DNA of 64,000 nucleotides from Camelus ferus (Eukaryota): positions 42,782,001 through 42,846,000 of the forward strand of contig NC_045696.1 in the NCBI RefSeq assembly GCF_009834535.1, given 5' to 3'. The first letter of the stretch is position 1, and each line of letters starts with the position of its first letter. The position numbers were made by a program, and so were the translations under genes. The notes under the pieces are model-generated. The model searched no databases. It saw nothing but the letters and a program-made list of their open reading frames with translations, and was not told the DNA's origin. Positions 3,031-46,440 of this stretch are shown here, piece after piece.

Positions 3031-3984
3031 CCCTCCCTCCCCTGCTTCCCCCTTGGAATTGAGTCCAAGAACCTAATTTACCTACATATTTTACTTCTGG
3101 ATATTTGGGAGTGGACAGAGAAGTATTTATTGAAAAAAAGATTGGTTTATTTTTAGAACTATTATTTGAACCACTGCTAATTTTTAACTCATCCTTAGCA
3201 AACTTTGCCCCATATTCTTTGCTCCTTGACTCTCCCTTAACCCTATGAGAGCTCATCCAATTCAGTAACTTTTTTGGTGTATTTTTCCAAATACACAGTT
3301 CATTACTTATGTCTTCTAAACATCCTCCCTTGTATTCTTTTTCTTTTTGTTACAGCTTAAATCTTTATTATCTATTGTTCATTTTGAGTACCAAGTTATC
3401 AGTTTTACTGTTTTACTAGTTAGTTACCTTAATCTGACCATTAATATGACTTAAAATTACTCAGCTGAAAATGATCCATTGCTTCATTCCTGATTAATGT
3501 GAGGATAATGAAAAATGCCAGCCTTGACATTGTCATTTTTGATTTGGTACACTCGATAAATATGGTCCATGTTGAAATAAAATGTTCTTGCTTCACCCTT
3601 ATCAGGAAGCTATGCACTATGTTTCCAAATGATTGTGATAGAATAGTTACCTTATGATTTCTTCATTATTTGTTTGTTTGTTTATTTATTTATTTATATT
3701 GAGGCACAGTCAGTTTACAATGTTGTGTCAATTTCTGCTGTACAGCACAATGTCCCAGCCATACATGAAGATACATGTATTCATTTTCACATTATTTTTC
3801 ACCATAAGCTACTACAAGATATTGAATATATTTCCCTGTGCTATACAGTATGAACTTGTTCATCTATTTTATATATAGCAGTCAGTATCTGCAAATCTCA
3901 AACTCCCAGTTTATCCCTTCCCTGTCCTCTTCCCCCTGGCAACCACAAGTCTGTATTCTATGTCTGTGAGTCTGTTTCTGTTTT

Positions 3985-4380
3985 TTATATAAGTTCATTT
4001 GTCTTTTTTCTTCTTTTTGGATTCCATATGAGTGATATCGTATAGTATTTTTCTTTCTCTTTCTGGCTTACTTCACTTAGAATGACATTGTCCATGGCCA
4101 TCCATGTTGCTGCAGATGGCATTATTTTATCATTTTTAATGGCTGAGTAATATTCCACTGTATAAATATACCAAAACTTCTTTATCCAGTCATCCATTGA
4201 TGGACATTTAGGCTTTCTCCATATCTTGGCTATTGTAAATAGTGCTGCTATGAACATTGGGGTGCAGGTGTCATCCTGAAGTAGGGTTCCTTCTGGATAT
4301 ATGCCCAGGAGCGGGATTCCTGGGTCACATGGTAAGTCTATTCCTAGTCTTTTGAGGAATCTCCAGTACTGTTTTCCACA
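3985..4380 (-). pseudogene. L1 ORF2 C-terminal remnant
   Basis: ORF 3985-4257 MFIAALFTIAKIWRKPKCPSMDDWIKKFWYIYTVEYYSAIK is the conserved L1 ORF2p C-terminus. Confidence 0.9.
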
Positions 4381-4446
4381 GAGAAATGCAAATCAAAACT
4401 ACAATGAGGTATCACCTCACTCCAGTCAGAATGGCCATCATTCAAA

Positions 4447-5029
4447 TATACTATGTCTTGATGTTGCATTAGTTTGGGTTCTTCTTGTTTGGGACCCTTT
4501 GTGCTTTCTGTACTTGGATATCTGATTCCTTCTTTAGGTTTGGGAAGTTTTCAGTCATGGTTTCTTCAAATACCTTTTTAATCTCCTTTGCTCTTTCTTC
4601 TCCTTGTGGGACCTCTATTATGTGTAGGTTGGCATGCTTTATATTATCCCATAGGTCCCTTATATTGTTTTCATTGGTTTTTATTTGTTTTTCTCTCAGC
4701 TGTTCTGATTGGGTGACTTCTATTTTCCTGTATTCTAAGTCACTTATTTGTTCCTATGCATTATCTAGCCTACTTTTTACAGCCTTTAGCTCAGCTCTCA
4801 TCTCAGCAAATGAGTTTTCCAATTTTAATTGGGTCCTCTTTATAGTTTCAATTTCCTTTTTGACATACATTCTGTCTCTATTCACAATCTCTTTTAGTTC
4901 CTTCAGTACTTTGATCACTCCTTTTTTGAAATCATGATCTAGTAGATTAGCAAGGTGTATTTCATTGATTATTCTTTCAGGGGATTTCTCTTGTTCTTTT
5001 AATTGTGAGTGGTTCCTCTGCTTCTTCAC
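4447..5029 (-). pseudogene. L1 ORF1 N-terminal half remnant
   Basis: MKKQRNHSQLKEQEKSPERIINE... followed after a stop by ...NIRDLWDNIK...TENFPNLKKESDIQ; homologous to ORF1 at 40183-41086. Confidence 0.9.
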
Positions 5030-8000
5030 TTATATCTCTCCAGCACTATGGATTAACAATAACAGAAGAACAAAACAAATAGAAATTAAAATCAAATTGA
5101 GACAAATTAAAAATAATTTAAAAGAAGAAGAAAATTGAAAGCAGTATGATTGATAACAGAAGAACAAAACAGTGCTAGAAATAAAATTGAGACAAATTTT
5201 TTAAAATTTTTAAGAATTTTTAAAAGAAAATTTCAAAAGAGATTTTAAACATTAAAAAAATTAAAATTAAGAAAGGAAAAGAAAAAAGGAAAGAAAAAAA
5301 AAGGTTGATGTGTTTCCATGGAGACTGTGAGTGCTTCATAATTTTGTCCAGAGGTCCTTCTTAAGTATGAGTGGTTGCCAAGTCTTCCTCCAGAGCCTTT
5401 TGTCTGTTATCCCTTTGGCTGAGGGTGTGGCCAGTATTTTGGTGTCAGAGCCTGCCCTGGCTATCGAACAGGGCCTCCTTTTTGTTCTGTGGTTGTTGCC
5501 GCTCCTGCCCTTGCTTTGCAGTGGGAACTCCACTTGCCGATTCCAGGCGTGCTCCGGTCATGCCCCAGGTCTGTGCTGCTCCCGGTGCTGGTAGGCAGGC
5601 AGGTCATCTCTCCTCCCAATGCCATGTCTGTGAGTTGTGCTACTGTGTGGTAGGTGGGCGCTTCTAGCCCCCTCCAGACACCTCGTCTCTATGCCTGCAC
5701 TCATTCACCATAGGCGGGCAGGTCATATCCCTTCTCAACACTGCATCCTGGCACCATGCTCCTGCGAGGTAGGTGGTAGGGTTGCTCCCCCATTCAGTGC
5801 CACTCCCCACACCGTCGCATCCATCATTCGTGCTCCATAGGTGGGCTCACAGAAAATGGCTGTGCCAGCCTCACTCCTTCTCACACACTCGCTGTGTGCC
5901 AGAAGTCCGCTCCTTGTTGGTTTGCCTTAGAGGCTTGAGTTCAAAGAGGCACCGGGGCAGAACGGTCCCCTCTGCCTGGGGCTGTAAACAAATTTCAGTC
6001 CCGCCTATGAGGTTTCGAAGCTGCTAGGTAAAGATTCAACCCCACCTCCGCCTGGGAGCCACGCACTGGAGAAGATAGTAGCCATGGCTGAGCCCCGCCT
6101 CTCTTCTCTAGAGAACATGCCAGGCACGGTGCCTCGGGTCTGCAGAGACAAAGGCTATGGCACCCCTCCCCCCAGGGCACACCAGCAGTGTTGCTTATTT
6201 TTTTTTTTTTGTATATTATGTGGTACCCAGGCTGTTCTGCTTTGTATACCCTCCCTGCCACAGCGCACCACACACTGCAGTCCCCCAGGGTCGCCTCTGT
6301 GCTGGCCAAGTCCTCCACCCGGCCAGGGAGGCTTGACCCATCCCACCCCTGCCGGTTCATGAATAGGTCTGGGGGTCTCAGGAACCCTTTGTGCCTGTTT
6401 ACCTTAGTTCTATTGGCCAAGGGCTATTCTATACAGATCCACCTTGGAGGTTCCCCCTCCATCCAGCTGACGGTGGGTCTGTGGATGTCACTTTCGGTGT
6501 ACTTGTGGGAGAGGGTGAGCTACGAGCGTCCTTCTACTCTACCATCTTGGTTCTTCCTCTTCATCATTTTAAATATATCACAACCCTGTTGTCTATAATC
6601 ACAATGTGTTCAACTCTTAGTTCATAATTAAATTTTTTTTTTTTATGTGTAGAGGTTTCACGATGCCCTTACTTCTAGTTCCTTCTTCTGCTATTTTCTA
6701 GATCTACTGAAACTCTGGCCCAGTTGTATTATTCTTTAAAGGGGAGATGTTGTATGGGGGCTCATGGGTCCATCCAGTCTGCATGAGCCAAACATGCTAA
6801 GCCATCCCTTCTATGGTCTATCATCCTATTCTGGGTATAGATGAAGATCAATAAATATAAAGCCTTTAAAAAGAATGTTTCCTGAAAACGCTGCTTGATT
6901 ACTGCTTAACCTTGTTCTCCAGAAAGTGCAGATCTCTGTGGCCCTCAGAATTATTTAGATATCACCAAGAATGGACTAACACAACCATAGACTATCAGGG
7001 CTGGGAAGGATCTTAAAGTCCATCTAATAAAATCTTCTCTTGTCAAGACATGAATTGAATAGTCAAAATTTGACTAGTTTTGTTTTCAAAAGTTAATTTT
7101 CATATGGTTCACCTCATAGATGAGATGGGGAAAGCCCTATTCAGTTGCCAGTGAGATCTGTCTACGCCATGGCCACAGCATTGTGCAGACCCACGTCTGT
7201 GATCTTAATGACAGCACTTGCTCTATCACTCATCTGGCTTACCTCTTGTTAAAAAAAATTAAGATAGTTGATACATATTTGGAATGGAAGGAGGCAGGAA
7301 AGAGCCACATAAAAATTTATCTCAAGGAAAATTAGGACATTTCAAATGAGATGAACTAGCAAGATACATTGATGCGATCCTTTGCCAGCAGGGAAGCATC
7401 CTGGATCGTTTCCTTTGTTCCAAGCCATTCTGCTATGATCTGAATAGACTCTTTCAAGTGATGAGTGGGCACACTTCAAAAATCATTCATAAGTTTCTCT
7501 AGATCTTGGAAAGCATTTTTCTATACAAATAACATAATAAATGATTAATATGTTCCCTGACCAATATTGCAAGGTTACTTTAACACACAAGCTACCGACA
7601 TATATTGGAATTGTTTTACATACGTCTAACAGTGGTATGCCTCTTTATTTCTTTGGGACAGCTGCTCTCTTAGTTCTAAATCTTCCCCCATCAGGAGTGG
7701 TGGCCATTTCCAGTACTGATGTAGAACAGGGTCTTCACTGGAGGTAGATTTTAGGGTACACTCAGGAACTTTTCAGAAACTTTTTCACTCAGTCCCCTTT
7801 TTTAATTACTTGATAGAAAGGGTCTCAGGATAACCACTGTCCAATTGTTCAGAATAAAAAGATAAAAGGAGAACTGCACGGACAAGGAGCATGCAGTTTC
7901 AGACTTCCGTGGGGATGTTTTTGGTACAGTTGTTTATAAAGTGAGGACCACCTAATCCTCAGTTTCTGTGGTCTGGGCTTCCCATTTTGCATCTTGATCT

Positions 8001-33898: not shown

Positions 33899-35727
33899 TT
33901 TTTTTTTTTAATTGAAGTATAGTTGATTTACAATGTTGTGTTGTTTTCTGGTGTACAGCATAGTGATTCAATTATACATAAATTCTTTTTCATTATAGGC
34001 TATTATAAGTTATTTAATACAGTTCCCTATGCTATACAGTAGGACCTTTTATCTGGTTTATATATAACGGTTAGTATCTACAAATCTCAAACCCTCCATT
34101 TATCCCTGCAACCCTTCCTTTACCCCCAGGTAACCATAAATTTGTTTTCTATGTCTGTGAGACTGTTTCTGTTTTGTAAATAAGTTCATTTGTCTTACAT
34201 TTTTTTAAAGATTCCACATATAAGTGATATCATATGGCATTTTTACTTTCTCTTTCTGGCTTAGTGACAGTCTCCAGGTCGATCCACGTTGCTGCAAATG
34301 GAATAATTTCATTTTTTTTTATGTCTAAGTATTGCATTATATGTATGCAATTTATTTATCCAATCCTCCATCAATGGACATTTAGGTTGCTTTTATGTCT
34401 TGGCTATTGTAAATAGTGCTGCTATGAACATTGGGTGCATGTAATTTTTTGAATTAGAATTTCCTCTGGATATATGCCCACGAGTGGGATTGCTGGATCA
34501 TATGCTAAGTCTATTTTTAGTTAGTTTTTTTTTTTTAAGGAATCTCCACACTGTTTTCCATAATGGCTACATCAAACTATATTCCCACCAACAGTGTAGG
34601 AAGGTTCTCTTCTCTCCACACCCTCTCCAGCATTTATTGCTTGTGGACTTTTCAATAATGAATGTGAAGTGATACCTCATTGTAGTTTTGACTTGCATTT
34701 CTCTAATAGTTAGAAATACTGAACTTTTTTATGTGCCTATTGGCCATCTGTATGTCTTTACTGAAAAAATGTTTGTTTGGGTCTTCTGCCCATTTAAAAA
34801 ATATATTTTCTGTTTGTTTTGTTTTTTGTTCTTGAGTTGTATGGCTGTTTGTATATTCTGGAAATTAAGCCCTTGTCAGTCACATCATTTGCAAATATTT
34901 TCTCCCATTCCTTAGCTTGTCTTTTCCTTTTGTTTATACTTTCCTTTCCTATGCAAAAGCTTATGAGTTTGATTAGGTCTCATTTATTTATTTTTGCTTT
35001 TATTTCTGTTGCCTTGGTAGATTGCCCTTGGAGAACACTGCTAAGATTCACATCAGAGATTGTTTTGCCTATGTTTTCTTCTCAAGGTTTATAGTGTCTT
35101 GTCTTAATGTTTAAGTCTTTAAACCATTTTGAGTTTATTTTTGTGTATGGTGTGAGAGAGTGTTCTAAGTTCATTGATTTACATGCAGCTGTCCAACTTC
35201 CCCAGCACCAACTTCAGAAGAGGCTGTCTTCTCTCCATTGTATATTCTTGCCTCCTTTGTTGAAGATTAATTGACCATACTTGTGTCGGTTTATTTCTAG
35301 TCTCTATTCTGACCCATTCATCTATATGTCTGTTTTTGTGCCAATATCACGCTGTTTTGAATATTGTAGCTTTGTAGTATCATCTGATGTCTGAGAGGGT
35401 TATTTATCCAGCTTTGTTCATTTTCTTCAGTATTGCTTTGATGATTCTGGGTCTTTTGTGATTCCATATAAATTTTTGGATTATTTGTTCTAGTTTTGTG
35501 AAAAATGTCCTAGGTAATTTGACAGGGATCACATTAAATCTGTAGATTGTTTGGGGGTATTATGGCCATTTTTACAATATTAATTCTTCCAATCCAAGAG
35601 CATGAGTTATCTTTCTATTTCTTTTCTATTTCTAATCATCTTTAATTTCCTTAATCAGTGTTTCATAGTTCTTTGCTTATAAGTCTTTCACTTCTTTGGT
35701 TAGGTTTATTCTTAAGTATTTTATTTT
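33899..35727 (-). mobile_element. Older cetartiodactyl-type L1, 3' part (host of the nested L1)
   Basis: Poly-T then AATTGAAGTATAGTTGATTTACAATGTTGTG; colinear with the young L1 3' half; continues at 43430. Confidence 0.9.
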
Positions 35728-36073
35728 ATTTTATTTTATTTTATTTTATTTTGAATATATATATATAAACATTTTTTATTGATTTATAATCATTTTACAA
35801 TGTTGTGTCAAATTCCAGTGTAGAGCACAATTTTTCAGTTATACATGAACATATATATATTCATTATCACATTTTTTTCTCTGTGAACTACCATAAGATC
35901 TTGTGTATATTTCCCTGTGCTATACAGTATAATTTTGTTTATCTATTCTACAATTTTGAAATCCCATCTATCCCTTCCCACCCTCCACCCCCTTGGCAAC
36001 CACAAGTTTGTATTCTATGTCTATGAGTCTATTTCTGTTTTGTATTTATGCTTTGTTTTTTTGTTTCTGTTTT

Positions 36074-39000
36074 TTAGATTCCACATATAAGCGATCTCAT
36101 ATGGTATTTTTCTTTCTCTTTCTGGCTTGCTTCACTTAGAATGACATTCTCCAGGAGCATCCATGTTGCTGCAAATGGCATTATGTTGTCAGTTTTTATG
36201 GCTGAATAGTATTCCATTGTATAAATATACCACTTCTTCTTTATCTAGTCATCCGTTGATGGACATTTAGGCTGTTTCCGTGTTTTGGCTATTGTAAATA
36301 GTGCTGCTATGAACATTGGGGTTCAGGTGTCATCCTGAAGTAGGGTTCCTTCTGGATATAAGCCCAGTAGCAGGATTCCTGGGTCATATGGTAAGTCTAT
36401 TCCTAGTCTTTTGAGGAATCTCCATACTGTTTTCCATAGTGGCTGCACCAAACTGCATTCCCACCAGCAGTGTAGGAGGGTTCCCCTTTCTCCACAGCCT
36501 CTCCAGCATTTGTCATTTGTGGATTTTTGAATGATGGCCATTCTGACTGGTGTGAGGTGATACCTCATTGTAGTTTTGATTTTCATTTCTCTGATAATTA
36601 GTGATATTGAGCATTTTTTCATGTGCTTATTGATCATTTGTATGTCTTCCTTGGAGAACTGCTTCTTCAGGTCTTTTGCCCATCTTTGGATTGGGTTGTT
36701 TGGTTGTTTCTTATTAAGTCGTATGAGCTGCTAATATATTCTGGAGATCAAGCCTTTCTTGGTTTCATTTGCAAAGATTTTCTCCGATTCTGTAGGTTGT
36801 CTTTTTGTTTTACTTATGGTTTCCTTTGCTGTGCAGAAGCTTGTAAGTTTCATTAGGTCCCATTTGTTTATTCTTGCTTTTATTTCTTCTCGGAGAAAAT
36901 TTTTGAGATGTATATCAGATAATGTTTTGCCTATATTTTCCTCTAGGAGGTTTATTGTATCTTGTCTATGTTTAAGTCTTTGATCCATTTTGAGTTGATT
37001 TTTGTGTATGGTGTAAGGGAGTGTTCTAGCTTCATTGTTTTACATGCTGCTGTCCAGTTTTCCCAACACCATTTGCTGAAGAGACTTCTTTATTCCATTG
37101 TATATTCTTGTCTCCTTTGTCGTAGATGAGTTGACCAAAAGTTTGTGGGTTCATTTCTGGGCTCTCTATTCTGTTCCATTGGTCTATATGTCTGTTTTGG
37201 TACCAATACCATGCTGTCTTGATGACTGTAGCTCTATAGTATTGTCTGAAGTCTGGGAGAGTTATTCCTCCAGCCTCTTTCTTTCTCTTCAGTAATGCTT
37301 TGGCAATTCTAGGTCTTTGATGGTTCCATATAAATTTTATTATGATTTGTTCTAGTTCTGTGAAGTATGTCCTGGGTAATTGGATAGGGATTGCATTAAA
37401 TCTGTAGATTGCCTTGGGCAGTGTGACCATTTTAACAATATTGATTCTTCCAATCCAAGAGCATGGGATATCTTTCCATTTTTTAAAGTCTTCTTTAATT
37501 TCCCTCATCAGTGGTTTATAGTTTTCTGTGTATAATTCTTTCACCTCCTTGGTTAGGTTTATTCCTAGGTATTTTATTACTTTGGGTGCTATTTTAAAGG
37601 GGATTGTTTCTTTACTTTCTTCTTCTGTTGATTTATCGTTAGTGTAAAGAAATGCAACTGATTTTTGAACATTAATCTTGTAACCTGCTACCTTGCTGAA
37701 TTCTTTGATCAGCTCTAGTAGTTTTTGTGTGGACCTTTTAGGGTTTTCTATATATAGTAACATGTTATCATGATATAGTGACACTTTCTCCTCTTCTTTT
37801 CCAATTTGGACCCCTTTTATTTTTCTCTCTTGCCTGATTGCTGTGGCTCAGACTTCCAAGACTATGTTGAATAGGAGTGGTGATAGTGGGCATCCTTGTC
37901 TTGTCCCAGATTTTAGTGGGAAGCTTTTGAGTTTTTCACCAGTTGAGTACTATGCTGGCTGTAGGTTTGTCATATATAGCTTTTATTATGTTGAGATATG
38001 TCCCCTCTATACCCACTTTGGTAAGAGTTTTTATCATAAATGGGTGTTGACTTTTATAAAATGCTTTTTCTGCATTGATTGAGATGATCATGTGGTTTTT
38101 GTCCTTTCTCTTGTTGATGTGATGTATTACATTGATTGATTTGCGTATGTTGAACCACCCTTGTGTCCCTGGGATGAACCCCACTTGGTCATGATGTATA
38201 ATCTTTTTTATGTGTTATTGGATTCTATTTGGTAATATTTTGGTGAGGATTTTGGCGTCTATGTTCATCAGTAATATTGGTCTGTAATTCTCTTTTTTGG
38301 TAGTGTCTTTGCCTGGTTTTGGTATCAGGGTGATGGTGGCTTCATAGAATGAGTTTGGGAGTATTCCCTCCTTTTCAGTCTTCTGGAAGAGTTTGAGAAG
38401 GACTGGTATGAGTTCTTCTTTGTATGTTTGGTAAGATTCCCCGGTGAAGCCATCTGGTCCTGGAGTTTTATTTGTAGGGAGGTTTTGTATTGCTATTTCG
38501 ATTTCATTTCTAGTGATAGATTTGTTCAAGTGGTCAGTTTCTTCTTGATTCAGTCTTGGTGGACTGTATGTTTCCAGAAGCTTGTCCATCTCCTCTAGGT
38601 TATCCAGTTTGGTTCCATATAGTTTTTCATAATATTCTCATATGATATTCTGTATTTCTATTTTATTTGTCATAATTTCTCCATTATCCTTTCTTATTTT
38701 GCTAATTTGTGCTCTCTCTTTTCTCTTCTTTGTGAGTTTGGCCAGAGGTTTATCAATTTTATTTACTTTTTCAAATAACCATCTTTTGGTTTGATTGATT
38801 TTTTTCTATGGTCTTTTTAATCTGTATTTTATTTATTTCCTCCTTGATCTTTATTATTTCCTTCCTTCTGCTGCCTTTTGGGGTTTTTTGTTCTTCTTTT
38901 TTAGTTCATTCAGCTGGTGGGTTAAATTGTTTATTTGAGATTGTTCTTCTTTTTTGAGGAAGGCCTGTATGGTATAAACTTCCCTCTTAGCACTGCCTTT

Positions 39001-39813
39001 GCTGTGTCCCATACAATTTTTGTGGTTGTGCTTTCATTTTCATTTGTCTCAAGGTATTTTTCAATTTCAGCTTTGATTTCCTTATTGACCCATTGGCTTT
39101 TTAATAACATATTGTTTAATCTCCATGCTTTCCTTTTTTTCTCCTTTGTTTCTCTGTTGTTGATTTCTAGTTTCATAGCATTGTGATCAGTAAAGATGCT
39201 TGAGATAATTTCTATCTTCTTAAAATTGCTGAGGTTTCTTTTGTGCCCAAGTACATGATCAATTGGAAAATGTTCCATGTGCACTTGAAAAGAAAGTATA
39301 TCCTATTTTTGGGGGGTGTAATGCTCTGAAAATATCCACCAAATCTAATTTTTCTATTGTATTATTTAATTTCTCTTTTGCCTTATATATTTTCTGTATA
39401 GTGATGTTAATGCAGTGTTCAAATCTCCAACTATGATTGTTTTATGTACTTAGGTGCTCCTATATTGGGTGCATATATATTAACGAGAGTAATGGCCTCA
39501 TCTTGTATCATTCCTTTAATCATTATAAAATGTCCTTCTTCATCTTTCTTTATGGCTTTTGTTTTAAGTCTGTTTTGTCTGAAATCAGTACTGCAACACC
39601 TGCTTTTTTGGCTTTTCCATTTGCATGGAATATCCTTTTCCATCCTTTCACTCTCAATCTATATGTGTCCTTCTCCCTAAAGTGGGTCTCTTGTATGCAG
39701 CCTATTGAAGGTTCTTGCTTTATTATCCAGTCTGCCACTCTGTGTCTTTTGACTGGAGCATTTAGTCCATTAACATTTAGAGTAATTAATGATAGATGTG
39801 TGTTTATTGACAT
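36074..39813 (-). pseudogene. L1 ORF2 (endonuclease-reverse transcriptase), multiply frameshifted
   Basis: MSINTHLSLITLNVNGLNAP (EN start), [54 protein letters not shown]. The catalytic Y/FADD motif reads YHDN at ~37764-37775. Confidence 0.95.
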
Positions 39814-40182
39814 TTTGAGCTTATCTTTGCAGTTGATTTGGTCTTTCCTCTTCTTTTTGTGGTTTGGTAATCTTCCTTTGTATTATCATGGATTTTATTT
39901 AGTTTTTGTGACTCCCTTGTAAGTTTTTGGCTTGTGGTTACCCTTTTCTGTAAGTCTATTAGTCCATTACTATATCTCAAACCCATCCTACCGAAAACAA
40001 AAAATTTTTAAAAAAGAAAGAAAGAAAAAAAAATATTCTAAATTTTCTTGCTTCCCTGTCCCACTCTTAATGATTTAAATGTCTTCTTTTACAATTTTGT
40101 GTTTATTTTATTTGTAATTCATGAGTTATCACCTTTCCAGTTATGATTTTCTCATTTCTGTAGCATCCTGCTTCTTTTCTAT

Positions 40183-41086
40183 TTAGAGTAGACCTTTCAG
40201 TATTTCTTTTAGCATGGGTTTAGTGTTGCTAAACTCTTGTAGTTTTTGCTTGTCTGTGAAATTCTATCTCTCTCCTTCTATCCTAAAGGATAGCCTTGTT
40301 GGATAAAGTCCTAGGCTGCATCTTTTTTCATTCAGGACTTTGAATATATCTTGCCTCTCCCTTCTGGCCTGTAGTTTTTGTGTAGCGAAATCAGCTGAGA
40401 GCCTTATGGGGGTTCCTGTGTAACTCACTCTTTGCTTTTCTCTTGTTACCCTTAGGATCATTTCTTTCTCCTTGACTCTGGCCATCTTGATTATGAAATG
40501 TCTTGGTGTGGGTCTGTTTGGGTTCTTCCTGTTTGGGACCCTTTGAGCTTCCTGTATTTGGATATCTGATTCCTTCTTTAGGTTTGGGAAGTTTTCAGTC
40601 ATGATTTATTCAAAAACCTTTTCAATCCCCTTTGATCTTTCTTCCCCTTCTGGAACCCCTATTGTGCGAAGATCGGCACACTTTATGTTATCCCATAGGT
40701 CCCTTATGTTGCTTTCATTTGTTTTTATTTGTTTATCTTGCAGTTGTTCTGATTGGGTGCTTTCTGTTTTCCTGTCTTCTAGGTCACTAATTCGTTCCTC
40801 TGCATTATCTACTCTGCTTTGCACTGACTTTAGTTAGGTCTGATCTCATCTCAGCCAATGAGTTTACCAGTTCTACTTGGTTCTTCTTTATAGCTTCGAT
40901 TTCATTTTTGATACATTTTATATCTCTAAACACTATCTCTTTTAGTTCCTTCAATACTTTGATCACTCCTTTTTTGAAATCTTGATGTAGTAGGCTATCG
41001 ATGTCTATTTCATTGATCATTCTTTCAGGGGATTTCTCTTGTTCTTTTAATTGGGAGTGGTTTCTCTGCTTCTTCATCTTGCTCAT
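40183..41086 (-). pseudogene. L1 ORF1 (RNA-binding), frameshifted
   Basis: MSKMKKQRNHSQLKEQE..., NIRDLWDNIK, PTPRHFIIKM, PIRLSADF, ending ...LKEILKGLL*. Confidence 0.95.
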
Positions 41087-41224
41087 ATGTCTCTTGTACT
41101 GTGACTTATGGAGTATCAGTTATCTATTGTGGTCTTTAAAGGAGTTTATTTATTTATCTATCTAATGCCTATGTAGGAATAAAACTTAAAAAGTAAAAAA
41201 AGAGAGAGAGAAAGAATTTTAAAA

Positions 41225-42295
41225 GGGAGGAAAAAAAGGTTTGAAAACAGTGTATAATCAATTATAGAAGCGCAATTTGAATCGGACTAGCTTTCAAGTT
41301 GAGACATCTGTTTTTTTCCTAAAAACCCTTAAAAAAAAAAAAAAAGGAAAAAAGATCCCAAAACGATATTTGAAACCTATTTATAATCTATAACAGGAGA
41401 TCAAAACCAAAAGAAATGAAAATGAAATCAGGTGGATTTTATTTTTAAAAAAATAATAATAATGTAACTACTTTAAGAAAAAAATTTAAAATGAATTAAA
41501 ACTAGAAGCATATACAATTGTTTAGAAAGTAGAAATTAAAAAGGTAATAGAAAATAGAACAGATTTAAAAAAAAAGATATTTTAAGAGAAGGGAGGAAAA
41601 AAAGGCCTGAAAATAGTGTATAGTCAATTATAGAAGAGTAATTTGAATTAGAGTAGCATTCGAATTGAGATCTTTTTAAAAACCCTCAAAAAAAAAAAAA
41701 AAAAAAGGAAAAAAGATCAAAAAATGACACCTGAAACCCATTTACCCAACAACAGGAGATCAAACCCAAAAGAAGTGAAAATGCAATCTTGTAAATTCTC
41801 TTTAAAAAACAATATAACTACTTTAAGAGAAAAACTCAAAAGGAATCAAAACTAGAAGCACACACAACCTTCCAGAAATTAGAAATCAAAAAGGTATTAA
41901 AAAATAGAACAGACAAAAAAAAAAAAAAAAAAAAAGATATGATAGAATTCCGGAAAAGGGCAGGAAAAAAAAGGCCTGAAAACAGCATACAATGAACAAC
42001 TGAAGAGTAAGTTGAAGCAGAACAGCAATCGGGTTGAGATGTCTCCCAAAAAGCTCCAAAATAGGACAAAAGAGGAAAAAAACACATTTGAAACCTGTGT
42101 ACAATCAACATCAGGCGATCAAAACCAAGAGAAAAAATGACACAAGTGGATCTTTCAAAATAACAACCTTACCATTTTAAAAGAAAAATTCAAAAGGGAC
42201 CCAAACAGGGAGGATACAACCGTTTAAAAAGCAAAAATCAAAAACGTAACAGAATACAGCAGGCAAAAACAGATAAAAAAAAAAAACTAAAAAGG
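41225..42295. repeat. Three ~366-bp A-rich tandem units in the L1 5'UTR
   Basis: GGG(C)AGGAAAAAAAGG starts at 41225, 41591 and 41958; TGAAACC...CAGG.GATCAAA.CCAA occurs in all units. Confidence 0.85.
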
Positions 42296-42399
42296 GTAGG
42301 GGGTGTTCTCCTGGAGACTGTGTACTCTTAATGAGAAGTCTTTCTGTCTTCGCCCTGTTTCGAGAGCTTGGCTTGTTGTTTCCCGAGGCCCTCTGTTGG

Positions 42400-42800
42400 C
42401 GCCCTTGTCTGTGCTGCTCCTAGTGCCTGTGGGCAAGCAGATCGCGCCCCCTCCCAGCGCAGCGTTCCTGCCGGAAAGGTGGGGGGGGCCACCCGCCGTC
42501 TCCCGGCGCCGGTCGCTCCGCAGCTCTGCGCCACCACGCGCTCCGACCGCAGGAGGGCCGGGAAGACCGCCGAACAGCCCCGCCCCTGCTCCCTGTCCAA
42601 GCTCAGCTCCTTGTTTGTTCTGGCCGCACGAACTTTGCTAGGCACCAGGGCGGAAGGATCTTATCTGATTTGGGCTGCAAACAAGTCGCTGTCTGGCCTC
42701 TGAGGCTGCCAAGCCCCCAGGAGCGGACTCAGGTTTCGCCCCCGCCCCCACCTGGGTGCCAAGCGCCGGAGGATATGGCGGCTTGTGCCTGAGCCCCGCC
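42400..42800. promoter_or_regulatory. CpG-rich part of the L1 5'UTR internal promoter
   Basis: About 23 CpGs counted in 42421-42640; GC-boxes GCCCCGCCC. Confidence 0.6.
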
Positions 42801-43429
42801 TGTCCTCACGGAAAACCTTCCTTGGGTTTTCAGAGATGGGGATATGCACCCTTTCACCCAGGGCGTATCAGCCGTGCTGTTTCATGGAGGGCCCAGGTTG
42901 TTCTGCCCTGTGCACCCACTCATCCACGTTGTGTAGCCCCTGCAGTCCCCTGGGGCTGCCTCAGCGCAGCCATCCCCATCCTCCACCTGGCTTGGGCAGC
43001 CTATCCCGGCCCCCAGCTCCCAGCTCGGGCCTCCAGCTGGGTGTCGCAGGGACCCTCTGCTGGTTGAACCCAGTTCTGTCAGTCAAGGGCTTCTCCATAC
43101 AGATCCAAGCCTCAGAGGCTCCCCTTCCATCCCGCTGGCCTCTCAGTTGGAGAGGGGAGACCCAGCGAAGGAGCAGCCAGTCCTCCTTTGCTGCTCCCTC
43201 CTCGGGGGACCGGTCCCACACCGTTTTGCCTTTTCATCTTCTTTTTTTTTTTTTTTCCTTTTTCCTACCAGATTTTTGGCATCTTTATATTTTGAAGAGG
43301 ACAATGTTCTGTCGGAGTTCCACAGGTGCTCTGGTTGGCTGAGTGGGCCCGTAGATGTGAGTCTTGGTGTATCTGTGGGAGAGGGTGAGCTGCGTGCATC
43401 TTACTACTCCGCCGTCTTGGCCTCCTCCC

Positions 43430-43662
43430 AGTATTTTATTTTTTGATGCAATTTTAAAAGGGATTTTTTAACTTTCCTTTTCTGATATTTCATTGTTAGT
43501 GTAAACAAATGCAACTGATTTCTGTATGTTAATTTTGTATCCTGCTACCTTGATGAATTCTTCTGTTAGCTCTAGTACTAGTTTTTGTATGGAGTCTTTA
43601 AGGCTTTCTATATATAGTATCATGTCACATGCTGTAGAGTGACAATTTTAGCTCTTCTCTTC
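43430..43662 (-). mobile_element. Continuation (5'-truncated end) of the older L1
   Basis: Resumes the ORF2 sequence exactly where 35727 stops (compare 37570-37800). Confidence 0.9.
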
Positions 43663-43796
43663 CCCAGTAACTGAATTCATCCAGGCAGCAGGGACAACTC
43701 CAATATGCTAGAGGGGCTACGTTGGGCACACAAGTGGGAAAGTGAGGCCACCAAGCACTGAAAGGAGAATCTCAAAACACAGTTCTTCCTGATCAT

Positions 43797-46440
43797 TTGC
43801 TTGTACCCATTATTATTTCTTTTCTTCTGCTTGCTTTGAATTTAATTTGCTCCTTTTCCAGTTTTCTAAGATGGAAACTTTTTCTTACTTTTCTAACATA
43901 TGCATTCAGTGCTATAAATTCCCCTCTAAGGACTGCCTTCACTGCATCCCATGGATTTCATTGTCATTTAGTTCAAAATAGTTTTTAATTTTTCTTGAGA
44001 GTTTTTTCTTTGACTGACCTCAAAGAAGTATGTTCTTTAATATCTCTATTTTGGGATTTTCCATTTATCTTTCTGTTAATAATGTCTAATTTAATGTCAT
44101 TGTGGTCTGAGAGTAGACATTGCATGATTTCTACACTTTTAAATTTGCTAAGGGGTGTTTTATGGTCCATAATGTGGCCTGTCTTGGTAAATGTTTCATA
44201 TAAGTTTGACAAAAATCTGTATTCTGCTGTTATTGTTGTATAAGCTAGTCAATAGGTGTCCATTATATCTAGTTGATTGATGGTATTGTTGAGTTCAACT
44301 ATGTCCATACTCATTTTCCATCTGCTGAATCTGTTCATTTTTGATAAAGGGACACTGAAGTCTTTGACTATAATAATGGATGCATCTGTTTCTCTTCGCA
44401 GTTTTCTTAGTTTTTACATCATGTATTTTGACACTGTTGTTGGGTACATACACATTAAAAATTGTTATGTTTTCTTGGAGAATTGACCTCTTTATCATTT
44501 TGTAAGACCCTTCTTTAATCCTGCTAACTTTCCCTACTTGGAAGAGTGCTTTGTCTAACATTAATAGACACACTCTTACTTTTTCAGGTTAATGTTAGCA
44601 TGGTATGTTTTACTCCATTCATTTACTTTTAACACATTGATCACCATGGCACACAAATTTGGGTGACAGTCATATTTCCTCAGGGGCACCTGATCTATAG
44701 TGGGTGATCAATGTGTTAACACTTATGTGTCTTTATACTAAAGTGGGTCTCTAACAGACAACACATAGTTGGGTTTTATTTCTTGACAATCTGTCCTTTA
44801 ATTTGTATATGTAAATTACAAATATTGAAAGTGATCATTGATATAATTGAATTAATATCTACCATATTTGTTAGTATTTTTCTATTTGTCACTTTTGTTC
44901 TTTATTCCTATTTTTGTCTTCCACTCTTTTTCTGTCTTTTGTGCTTTTAATCAAACGTTTTATGTGATTTTCTTTTTTCTTAGCACATTCATTATACTTC
45001 TGTTTTTACTTTTTTTTAATGGTTGCAGTATACATTTACAGCTAATCCAAGTCTACTTTTAAATAACACTATACTGATTCATAGGTAGAGAGTACCTTAT
45101 AATGACAAAATAACCCTTATTCCTTCCTCTGTCCCTTTTATCATTGCTGTCATTTATTTCACTTATACATAAGCTCATATAAATATACATAAGTACACGT
45201 GATTGAGTACACTGTTACCATTATTATTTTGAACATACTGTTAGCTACTAGATCATTAAGAATAAGAAAAATAGATTTCTTAACTTTACCTTTACTTATT
45301 GCTTCTCTGATGCTCTTCATTTTTTTATATAGATCTGAATTTCTGCCCTCTTTCATTTACCTTCATTAATTTTTTTTTTTTTAACATTTCCCGCAAGGTC
45401 TTCTACTGTCATTACTGTCATTATTGTTTCAAACATTTCTTCTCTTCCTTTCTCTCTTTTCCTTCTGGAATTCTCATTAGGCACCATGTTATACCTTTTT
45501 TAGTTCTTTCACATTTTTGGATATTTTATTTGTTCTGTTTTTTTTTTTTTTTTTTTTCCTTTCTTTCTCTCTTCAGTTCTTTTTCTTGCTGCTTTTCAGT
45601 TTCAGTGGTTTCTAGTAAGATACCCTCAGGTCAGAGACGCTTTTCTCAGCTGTATCCAGTCTACCAATAATCCCACCAAATATGCATTTTTCTTTTCTCT
45701 TAGTGTTTTTTTTTTTTAAATCTCTCCTTCTCTCTCTAATTTTTTTTTTTTTTTGATTTTTTGTTAGAATTTCCATCTCTCTGCCTCCATTGCCCATCAG
45801 TTTTGCGTTTTGTACTTTACGCATTGGAGTCCTTAGCATCTTATCCACAGTTCTTTTAAACCTCTGATAATTCCCACATCCCTGCCATATCTTAGTCTGG
45901 TTCTGATGCTTATTATTTCTTTTCAGACTTTGGCTCTTGTCTTTTAGTATGTCTTCTTTCTTAGTAACTGAACATGATGTACTTGGTAAAGGGAACTGCT
46001 GTAATTAGGCCTTTGGTGGGGGGGGGAAGTGTTTTATAAGTAGGTTTTGGTCTTTTAGTGAGTTTGTAGCACTGAACTGTGAACTTCACATATGCTTCTC
46101 AGTTTTTAGCTTCTCTTCACTGGGACAAGATGGCTAGAGTGGGCTGTATTTGGGTATTGCCTTTCTTTAACATTGGAAGGCTACAGTGAGCTGGAATTGG
46201 AGTTTTCCTTCCCCCAGGTCAATTAAACTCTGATTAACCTCAGCCAGTCAGGCTCTAGCTAAACAGTTTCACCTGAGGGCAGGTATTTTAAGCCAAACAG
46301 CTGGGGGAGCTCTGGCGTTTTTCAAAATGGCTCCTTTTCCTTTCCTCCTGTCAGAAGCACAGGAGGTTTTTCTCTGCAATTCCCTGTGAGAACGTGGTCC
46401 ACCTCCTGGAGGTAAGATGCAAAAGTGTGGGGTTCCCCTG
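43797..46440 (-). mobile_element. Ancient L1M (L1MC/MD-like) ORF2 EN domain, spacer and ORF1 region
   Basis: Antisense ORFs ETFTKTGHIMDHKT...LSDHNDIKLDI and IKEGSYKMIKRSILQENITIFNVYVPNN; ORF1-like GIIGRLDTAEKSVSDL. Confidence 0.75.
44633..44715. mobile_element. piggyBac-type MITE (83 bp)
   Basis: TTAA|CACATTGATCACC...GGTGATCAATGTG|TTAA: perfect 13-bp TIRs and TTAA TSD; the host L1 is restored on removal. Confidence 0.8.

What the first reader, a model, noticed from the sequence alone, without database searches (positions are those of the whole stretch)
44629..44719. Unrecognised 83-bp piggyBac-type MITE with perfect TIRs and TTAA target duplication
Seen: TTAA(44629-32)-CACATTGATCACC ... GGTGATCAATGTG-TTAA(44716-19). 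Removing the element plus one TTAA restores continuous ancient L1 sequence (CCATTCATTTACTTTTAACACTTATGTGTCTTTATACTAAAGTGGG), so it is an insertion. Established: TTAA TSDs with short TIRs define the piggyBac superfamily. The eutherian piggyBac MITEs I recall (MER75, MER85) start with CCC, while CAC-starting ends are what I recall from bat (Myotis) piggyBacs. Inference: mismatch-free TIRs and TSDs inside a heavily decayed host suggest a younger, lineage-specific piggyBac wave in a camelid-like genome, possibly horizontally acquired. This would imply an autonomous partner with CACATTG ends. Caveat: the host base triplet after the right TTAA is also CAC, so a local fold-back duplication is a formal alternative.
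Basis: partly seen in the sequence, partly recalled or inferred. Interest (0 to 1): 0.75.

Follow-up and report, generated by a model that had tools for sequence, protein, structure and literature searches.

The report
Probable piggyBac mini-transposon in camel DNA
An 83-base, gene-less piece of DNA has inserted into a dead L1 retrotransposon of a camel genome and is built like the ends of a piggyBac cut-and-paste transposon, which hints at a piggyBac invasion of the camel lineage, but only this one copy could be examined and its age is loosely bounded.

Summary
Observation confirmed. TTAA + 13-bp TIR is mismatch-free at both ends, and the stretch is an exact 87-bp (83+4) insertion relative to another L1 in the window. 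New support for piggyBac: a 22-bp imperfect palindrome at bp 15-36 of the left end, where piggyBac's cysteine-rich domains bind (P 0.002-0.008, position window set post hoc; 0.06 untargeted), and 8 of 13 identity to the piggyBat tip. Host is camelid. Simple fold-back is rejected: the flanks do not template the arms. Weak points: one copy only; copy number, orthologous empty sites, autonomous partner and Dfam/Repbase status are untested. Perfect ends bound the age only to under about 65 My at the camel rate, so 'young' and 'horizontal' are not shown. A TA-target Tc1/mariner parse gives the same 87 bp. Camel piggyBac-like MITE families were counted in print without sequences I could see. The scan holds no look-alike of this sequence. 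Verdict: likely a new member of a known kind.

The parts
44629..44632 (.). Left TTAA target-site copy
44633..44645 (+). Left 13-bp terminal inverted repeat CACATTGATCACC; first six bases fit the piggyBac end motif; 8 of 13 identical to the piggyBat left tip
44647..44668 (.). 22-bp imperfect palindrome (arms 9 of 11 complementary), element bp 15-36, centre bp 25.5; inferred binding site for the transposase's cysteine-rich-domain dimer
   Evidence: piggyBac palindrome at bp 17-33, centre about bp 25 (PMC7351741)
44680..44693 (.). Short inner inverted repeat near the right end (5-bp perfect arms, 4-bp loop; bp 23-36 from the right tip), different in sequence from the left palindrome; weak on its own
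44703..44715 (-). Right 13-bp terminal inverted repeat, identical to the left
44716..44719 (.). Right TTAA target-site copy
44030..45000 (-). Host: decayed old L1, ORF2 endonuclease-coding region around the insertion (aligned part only; the L1 extends further)
   Evidence: aligns to 39109-39970 of the younger L1; insertion point corresponds to 39657-39662, inside the frame 39553-39882 that hits Pfam Exo_endo_phos

Best explanation
A non-autonomous piggyBac element (MITE). Shown: an 83-bp gene-less insert with identical 13-bp C-starting ends and a duplicated TTAA sits in an old L1 of a camelid genome. Inferred from the piggyBac mechanism: it is an internal-deletion derivative of a full-length piggyBac with CAC-starting ends, reduced to little more than its two transposase-binding ends. 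A transposase supplied in trans bound both TIRs with its core domains and the left sub-terminal palindrome with a cysteine-rich-domain dimer, excised the element through TTAA hairpins and inserted it at the single TTAA of the L1, duplicating it. The transposase has since most likely died, leaving a neutral fossil. Timing (inferred): after the host L1 decayed in part, probably on the camel branch after the split from pigs (under about 65 My), and probably before the organisms that share this locus diverged.
For: Exact 87-bp = 83+4 insertion against an in-window L1 paralogue. TTAA target, 13-bp TIR and first-six-base motif C[C/A/T][C/A/T][T/G/A][T/A/G][T/G/A] match the superfamily description (PMC5381638 passages; motif alone has 0.06 chance). 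Palindrome centred at bp 25.5 of one end only, as for the piggyBac left end (bp 17-33, centre about 25; PMC7351741 passages) and piggyBat (palindrome 3 bp after the motif at bp 11-16; PMC11707139 section 7): P 0.0024 (left end), 0.0041 (either end) in 20,000 shuffles, 0.0082 against random window 57-mers. Different inner repeats at the two ends are a described piggyBac-like architecture (PMC12324416 passages). 8 of 13 identity to the piggyBat tip, binomial P 0.006, 0.014 without the first C. Interior GC 46% against 26-32% in the flanks. Mammalian piggyBac MITEs of 172-348 bp exist in bats and lemurs.
Against: Only one copy seen: none other in 64 kb, which excludes only very large families (P of no second copy 0.85 for 5,000 copies). 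No transposase: 0 piggyBac Pfam hits in 221 frames scanned. The palindrome test window was chosen after the palindrome was seen; without a position constraint P is 0.061. Two short interior pieces resemble the right flank (12/14 and 10/11; reached by 1.4% of random windows in 1 of 4 comparisons). The TA-target parse cannot be excluded at one locus.
Confidence: 0.82

Rival explanations
1. A Tc1/mariner-type MITE: 85 bp with 14-bp TIRs starting with A, inserted at a TA that happened to lie in TTAA.
For: Formally identical at this locus: 85+2 = 87 bp and the same empty site (sequence).
Against: Only 11% of TA sites in the window (514 of 4805) and 13% in the host L1 (21 of 156) lie in TTAA. The likeness to the piggyBat tip and the palindrome at the piggyBac CRD position would be coincidences. 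Mammalian Tc1/mariner ends rarely start with A (recalled).
Confidence: 0.06
2. A one-off repair insertion: at a break, the 3' end was extended on other templates, snapped back to copy its own first 17 nt, and rejoined by microhomology; no transposon involved. The plain fold-back duplication proposed by the first reader is the simplest form.
For: 7-bp direct repeat TTAACAC at both junctions; the four host bases after the right TTAA all differ from the L1 paralogue; two short interior pieces resemble the right flank.
Against: The 13-bp arm has no local template (best 9 of 13 within about 2 kb); the insert is no tandem copy of either neighbouring 87 bp (fractions 0.17 and 0.80 of random windows score as well); 3 of 4 flank comparisons are at chance and the two pieces are in the wrong order; ending exactly at TTAA with a piggyBac-type tip and palindrome would be chance.
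Confidence: 0.07
3. A piggyBac MITE, but an old or already catalogued one (ancestral to artiodactyls or laurasiatherians, or a camelid family already in Dfam or in the 2021 Camelus library), picked out because this copy happens to have perfect ends. This differs from the best explanation in age and novelty, not mechanism.
For: P of 17 perfect pairs is still 0.05 at 64 My and 0.024 at 80 My, and the copy was selected for being perfect. Four MITE families per camelid genome were classed as piggyBac by homology (PMC8605555 Table 8). The Zoonomia curation covered four camelids and is deposited in Dfam.
Against: Human piggyBac families in Repbase are only Looper, MER75/A/B and MER85 (PMC5753468), whose CCC-type ends are recalled, not checked. 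No text hit for this TIR as a transposon end.
Confidence: 0.3
4. A Kolobok MITE (also duplicates TTAA).
For: TTAA duplication; Kolobok-classed MITE families were counted in camelids.
Against: Kolobok ends are 5'-RR..YY-3' (PMC9587614); this element is CA..TG.
Confidence: 0.01

Closest known systems
piggyBat (piggyBac1_ML, Myotis lucifugus) and bat/lemur non-autonomous piggyBacs (npiggy1-3_Mm, npiggyBac-2_EF, nPiggyBac-1..3_MNa)
   Same: TTAA target; CAC-starting tip, 8 of 13 identical to the piggyBat left tip; imperfect palindrome just inside one end only; mammalian, gene-less derivatives.
   Different: Perfect 13-bp TIRs against piggyBat's poorly matched 15-bp TIRs; lacks the GCGGGA motif; 83 bp against 172-348 bp; host is a herbivorous artiodactyl. 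The ends of piggyBac2_ML/Mm and of the npiggy families could not be read, so the nearest family is not established.
piggyBac (IFP2) of Trichoplusia ni
   Same: 13-bp TIR, TTAA, palindrome centred near bp 25 of the left end, asymmetric ends; minimal LE35+RE63 = 98 bp is close to the whole 83-bp element.
   Different: Here the two inner repeats differ in sequence, whereas piggyBac has the same 19-bp palindrome at both ends; no ORF.
Human piggyBac MITEs MER75/MER75A/MER75B/MER85
   Same: Short, TTAA-flanked, sub-terminal inner repeats, families of 93-905 copies with many ends intact.
   Different: Their ends start with CCC (recalled; not seen in a call); no sequence comparison could be run.
Four 'piggyBac' MITE families per camelid genome (Ibrahim et al. 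2021, PMC8605555, Table 8)
   Same: Same host group, same class, size range 50-650 bp.
   Different: Only counts were visible; assigned by automated homology; TSD lengths reported as 2, 3, 8 or 10 bp, not 4; supplements unreadable, so identity with this element is open.

Membership tests
piggyBac superfamily, non-autonomous (MITE) | TTAA target-site duplication | tested here: met
   TTAA both sides; 87-bp = 83+4 gap against an L1 paralogue. The TA parse is formally equivalent at one locus.
piggyBac superfamily, non-autonomous (MITE) | Short TIR (about 12-19 bp) starting with C, motif C[C/A/T][C/A/T][T/G/A][T/A/G][T/G/A] | tested here: met
   13 bp, CACATT
piggyBac superfamily, non-autonomous (MITE) | Sub-terminal palindrome or inner repeats (common, not universal) | tested here: met
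   bp 15-36, centre 25.5; P 0.002-0.008 targeted, 0.06 untargeted
piggyBac superfamily, non-autonomous (MITE) | Multiple dispersed copies of uniform size at different TTAA sites | tested here: inconclusive
   One copy in 64 kb, uninformative below about 100,000 copies; no genome-wide count was obtained
piggyBac superfamily, non-autonomous (MITE) | Ends shared with an element encoding a piggyBac DDD transposase | not testable with these tools
   No assembly of the host; none in the window; scans of viral, metagenome and prokaryote contigs gave only chance arms
piggyBac superfamily, non-autonomous (MITE) | Orthologous empty site with a single TTAA | tested here: inconclusive
   Paralogous L1 lacks the 87 bp; word shares of 0.82 in two organisms fit either an empty site or about 0.5% divergence
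Kolobok | Termini 5'-RR..YY-3' with TTAA duplication | tested here: not met
   CA..TG; PMC9587614
Tc1/mariner MITE | TA duplication with variable outer flanks | tested here: inconclusive
   Fits formally with A-starting 14-bp TIR; TTAA context has 11-13% prior; needs more copies
piggyBat family itself | Tip sequence and GCGGGA core motif at bp 11-16 | tested here: not met
   8 of 13 tip identity only, no GCGGGA: related in type, not a member
Catalogued mammalian MITE (Dfam/Repbase/Zoonomia) | Full-length match to a library consensus | not testable with these tools
   Libraries not held; Rfam negative for the window; text searches negative

The most novel reading that the evidence does not exclude
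The element marks an undescribed piggyBac invasion confined to the camel lineage (Tylopoda) in the last 40 My or so, by horizontal transfer of a CAC-ended element related to the bat piggyBacs; its 83-bp MITE escaped surveys that require at least 90 bp, and, being close to the minimal pair of transposase-binding ends, it shows the smallest natural substrate of that transposase.
Probability: 0.3. Interest if true: 0.65.

Novelty: new member of a known kind. Interest (0 to 1): 0.42.

Why it matters
Lineage-specific DNA transposon invasions are reported as rare outside bats: 229 events in 37 bats against 2 in 46 cetartiodactyls, whose representative there is a whale (PMC10162687 Table S8), and recent DNA transposons are about 20 times more abundant in cetaceans than in other artiodactyls (bioRxiv 2022.12.28.522108). 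A camel-specific piggyBac family would be a herbivore exception to the diet-linked model of horizontal transfer, would give dated presence/absence markers on the long camelid stem, and would point to another mammal-adapted piggyBac transposase. That survey's rule needs elements of at least 90 bp, so an 83-bp family could have been missed. If it is old or already in Dfam, it is an ordinary fossil.

Tried and rejected
No second copy in the window. TIR scans: 3 viral and 51 metagenome stretches all had one arm only and no interior match; the best, 25 of 26 bases to the right end in L054, lies inside a long open frame and was judged chance; two-arm pattern: 0 viral hits, 1 prokaryote hit unrelated inside. 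Attempts to obtain a piggyBac transposase as a query failed: 0 hits for the piggyBat tip, 4 phage chance hits for the piggyBac tip, Pfam PF13843 absent from the 1 of 5 records that could be searched; so no protein search for a camelid partner was run. Pfam on 221 frames (216 outside the two young-L1 blocks plus 5 inside) found only L1 domains; Rfam nothing. RNA fold is a multibranch hairpin, not pre-miRNA-like by eye. Word shares of public runs (20 holders of 23 listed, 9 studies, 4 labelled organisms, 0.82-0.96) show the locus is real and shared, but cannot tell filled from empty sites: losing the whole insert costs 16% of words, only the junctions 8%, one SNP 4%; one holder may be the window's own source. 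Table S2 of PMC10162687 shows nothing special for camelids but its rows look inconsistent (for example Helitron shares near 10% in cattle), so it was not used. Kolobok, PIF/Harbinger (3-bp) and hAT (8-bp) parses give wrong or asymmetric ends. Text searches for this family; none names it.

Full report
Observation. The sequence reads TTAA (44629-44632), an 83-bp element (44633-44715), TTAA (44716-44719). The arms including TTAA are 17 nt, fully complementary, 57 nt apart. It is the only perfect inverted repeat of 15 bp or more with a spacer up to 1 kb in the window, and 2 of 100 dinucleotide shuffles produced one of 17 bp or more. Of 514 TTAA sites, only this pair encloses C...G ends with 3 or fewer mismatches in 13 bp within 4 kb. 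No second copy is in the window.

It is an insertion. The window holds a younger L1 whose ORF2 endonuclease region (frame 39553-39882, Pfam Exo_endo_phos) is homologous to the host. The host aligns at 86/143 and 89/146 identity on the two sides, and the gaps at the site add up to 51+10+26 = 87 bp, exactly the element plus one TTAA; a scan of trial deletions also favours 87 bp. This is a paralogous, not an orthologous, empty site. The element's GC is 46% against 32% and 26% in the 300-bp flanks.

Host. The ORF1 fragment of the young L1 has its highest identity among named hits to a Camelus dromedarius protein (85% over 53% of the query), against 63-68% for pig and at most 69% for bats among 57 hits. 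Earlier notes of this scan call this genome a camel's (AI notes). The 751-bp stretch around the element is held by 20 of 23 listed public runs from 9 studies and 4 coded organisms at word shares of 0.82-0.96, so it is real DNA shared by close relatives; the shares do not tell filled from empty sites. No gene exon was recognised (0 non-L1 Pfam hits in 221 frames).

Anatomy. The first six bases fit the piggyBac end motif and the TIR length is typical (PMC5381638, passages). The TIR matches the piggyBat left tip given in a supplement of PMC11707139 at 8 of 13 positions (P 0.006; 0.014 without the first C), but lacks piggyBat's GCGGGA motif (section 7 read). One base inside the left TIR begins a 22-bp imperfect palindrome (44647-44668; arms 9 of 11), element bp 15-36, centre 25.5. 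In the piggyBac structure a dimer of cysteine-rich domains binds a palindrome at bp 17-33 of one end, centred near bp 25 (PMC7351741, passages); piggyBat has one 3 bp after bp 16 of its left end and none on its right. A palindrome this good centred at bp 24-27 arises in 0.24% of 20,000 shuffles (0.41% allowing either end) and 0.8% of random window 57-mers. That window was set after I had seen the palindrome; anywhere in the interior the figure is 6%. The right end has a different, weaker inner repeat (44680-44693). Different inner repeats at the two ends are described for piggyBac-like elements (PMC12324416, passages).

Mechanism. Shown: size, ends, TTAA duplication, insertion into L1, no coding capacity. 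From established piggyBac chemistry: transposase excises through TTAA hairpins and joins to a target TTAA, duplicating it. Inferred: this element is a deletion derivative of a full-length CAC-ended piggyBac, cut down to about the minimal two ends (piggyBac needs 35+63 bp), moved in trans, and now inert. Confidence 0.82.

Age. Seventeen mismatch-free pairs bound per-site divergence at 8.4% (95%). The camel rate in PMC10162687 Table S3 is 1.3e-9, with a camel branch of 0.083 since the split from pig at 64 My, so the bound is about 65 My; P of perfect ends is 0.47 at 17 My, 0.16 at 40 My, 0.05 at 64 My. The copy was also noticed because it is perfect. In human, 144 of 475 MER75 and 95 of 905 MER85 copies keep gap-free ends with TTAA (PMC4625184, passages). 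So insertion on the camel branch is likely, but 'young' is not shown.

Rivals. (1) Tc1/mariner parse, TA plus A-starting 14-bp TIR: identical at one locus, but only 11-13% of TA sites lie in TTAA. (2) Repair insertion with fold-back: the arm has no local template (best 9 of 13) and the insert is no tandem copy; against my reading, two short interior pieces resemble the right flank (12/14, 10/11; 1.4% of random windows in 1 of 4 tests), and the four host bases after the right TTAA, which create the 7-bp direct repeat, all differ from the L1 paralogue; this stays unexplained. (3) Kolobok: needs RR..YY ends (PMC9587614, passages); not met. (4) Old or already catalogued piggyBac MITE: open.

What is in print. 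PMC8605555 (passages) counts four piggyBac-classed MITE families in each of four camelids without sequences in the text; its supplements could not be read and may hold this element. PMC6675863 has no mention of piggyBac (passages). PMC2997546 (parts 2-3 of 5; supplement unreadable), PMC4971623 (passages and supplement) and PMC3342881 (passages) describe bat and lemur families but show no end sequences in text. PMC10162687 (passages; supplement, cut when stored) found non-bat matches of bat elements only in lemurs, tenrecs, tree shrews, insectivores, an opossum and two non-mammal groups, counts 2 events in 46 cetartiodactyls, and used a 90-bp minimum. The Zoonomia curation (bioRxiv 2022.12.28.522108, passages) is in Dfam, which I could not search. 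Four readable supplements of PMC13461360 hold neither the TIR nor camelid names (one PDF unsearched); the TIR table of PMC5381638 was too large to read; Ray et al. 2008 is not held. Human piggyBac families are Looper, MER75/A/B, MER85 (PMC5753468, passages); their CCC ends are recalled. Ten text searches name no camelid piggyBac family with these ends; the seven listed hits for the motif (listing only) are unrelated papers.

What remains open. Copy number, flanks of other copies, orthologous sites, the autonomous partner and library status are all untested; each is a short job with an assembly. Scans of viral, metagenome and prokaryote collections gave only chance single arms, as expected for a mammalian repeat, and the scan's own index has no look-alike; its TTAA-MITE notes concern giant viruses.

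Verdict. A real, well-formed insertion, very probably a piggyBac MITE; new member of a known kind; interest 0.42. If it marks a camel-specific horizontal invasion in the last 40 My (probability 0.3) it would deserve 0.65.

Noticed in passing
window 33905-43663: Nested L1s: an older L1 (33905-35725) resumes at 43431-43663, split by a near full-length younger minus-strand L1 (about 35770-43430) with 5'UTR, ORF1 and ORF2 remnants.
   Followed up: partly
window 3685-6560: Rearranged young L1: 3' end (3693-4381) joined through a 71-bp inverted piece (4379-4449, 96% identical to 36523-36593) to the ORF1/5'UTR part, with most of ORF2 missing.
   Followed up: no
window 41188-42285: Diverged tandem units of about 370 bp (67-72% alike) between ORF1 and the GC-rich 5' end of the young L1.
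   Followed up: no
window 44720-44723: The four host bases after the right TTAA all differ from the L1 paralogue and extend the target duplication to a 7-bp direct repeat that mimics the element's own start; chance, slippage or a remnant of a second insertion cannot be told apart.
   Followed up: partly
whole window: No young tRNA-derived SINE was recognised by eye or by a box-motif scan, in keeping with a camelid rather than a ruminant, pig, whale or vesper bat (recalled).
   Followed up: partly
L054 3992-4017 and L008: A metagenome contig matches the element's right end at 25 of 26 bases, inside a long open frame; no second arm; treated as chance.
   Followed up: yes
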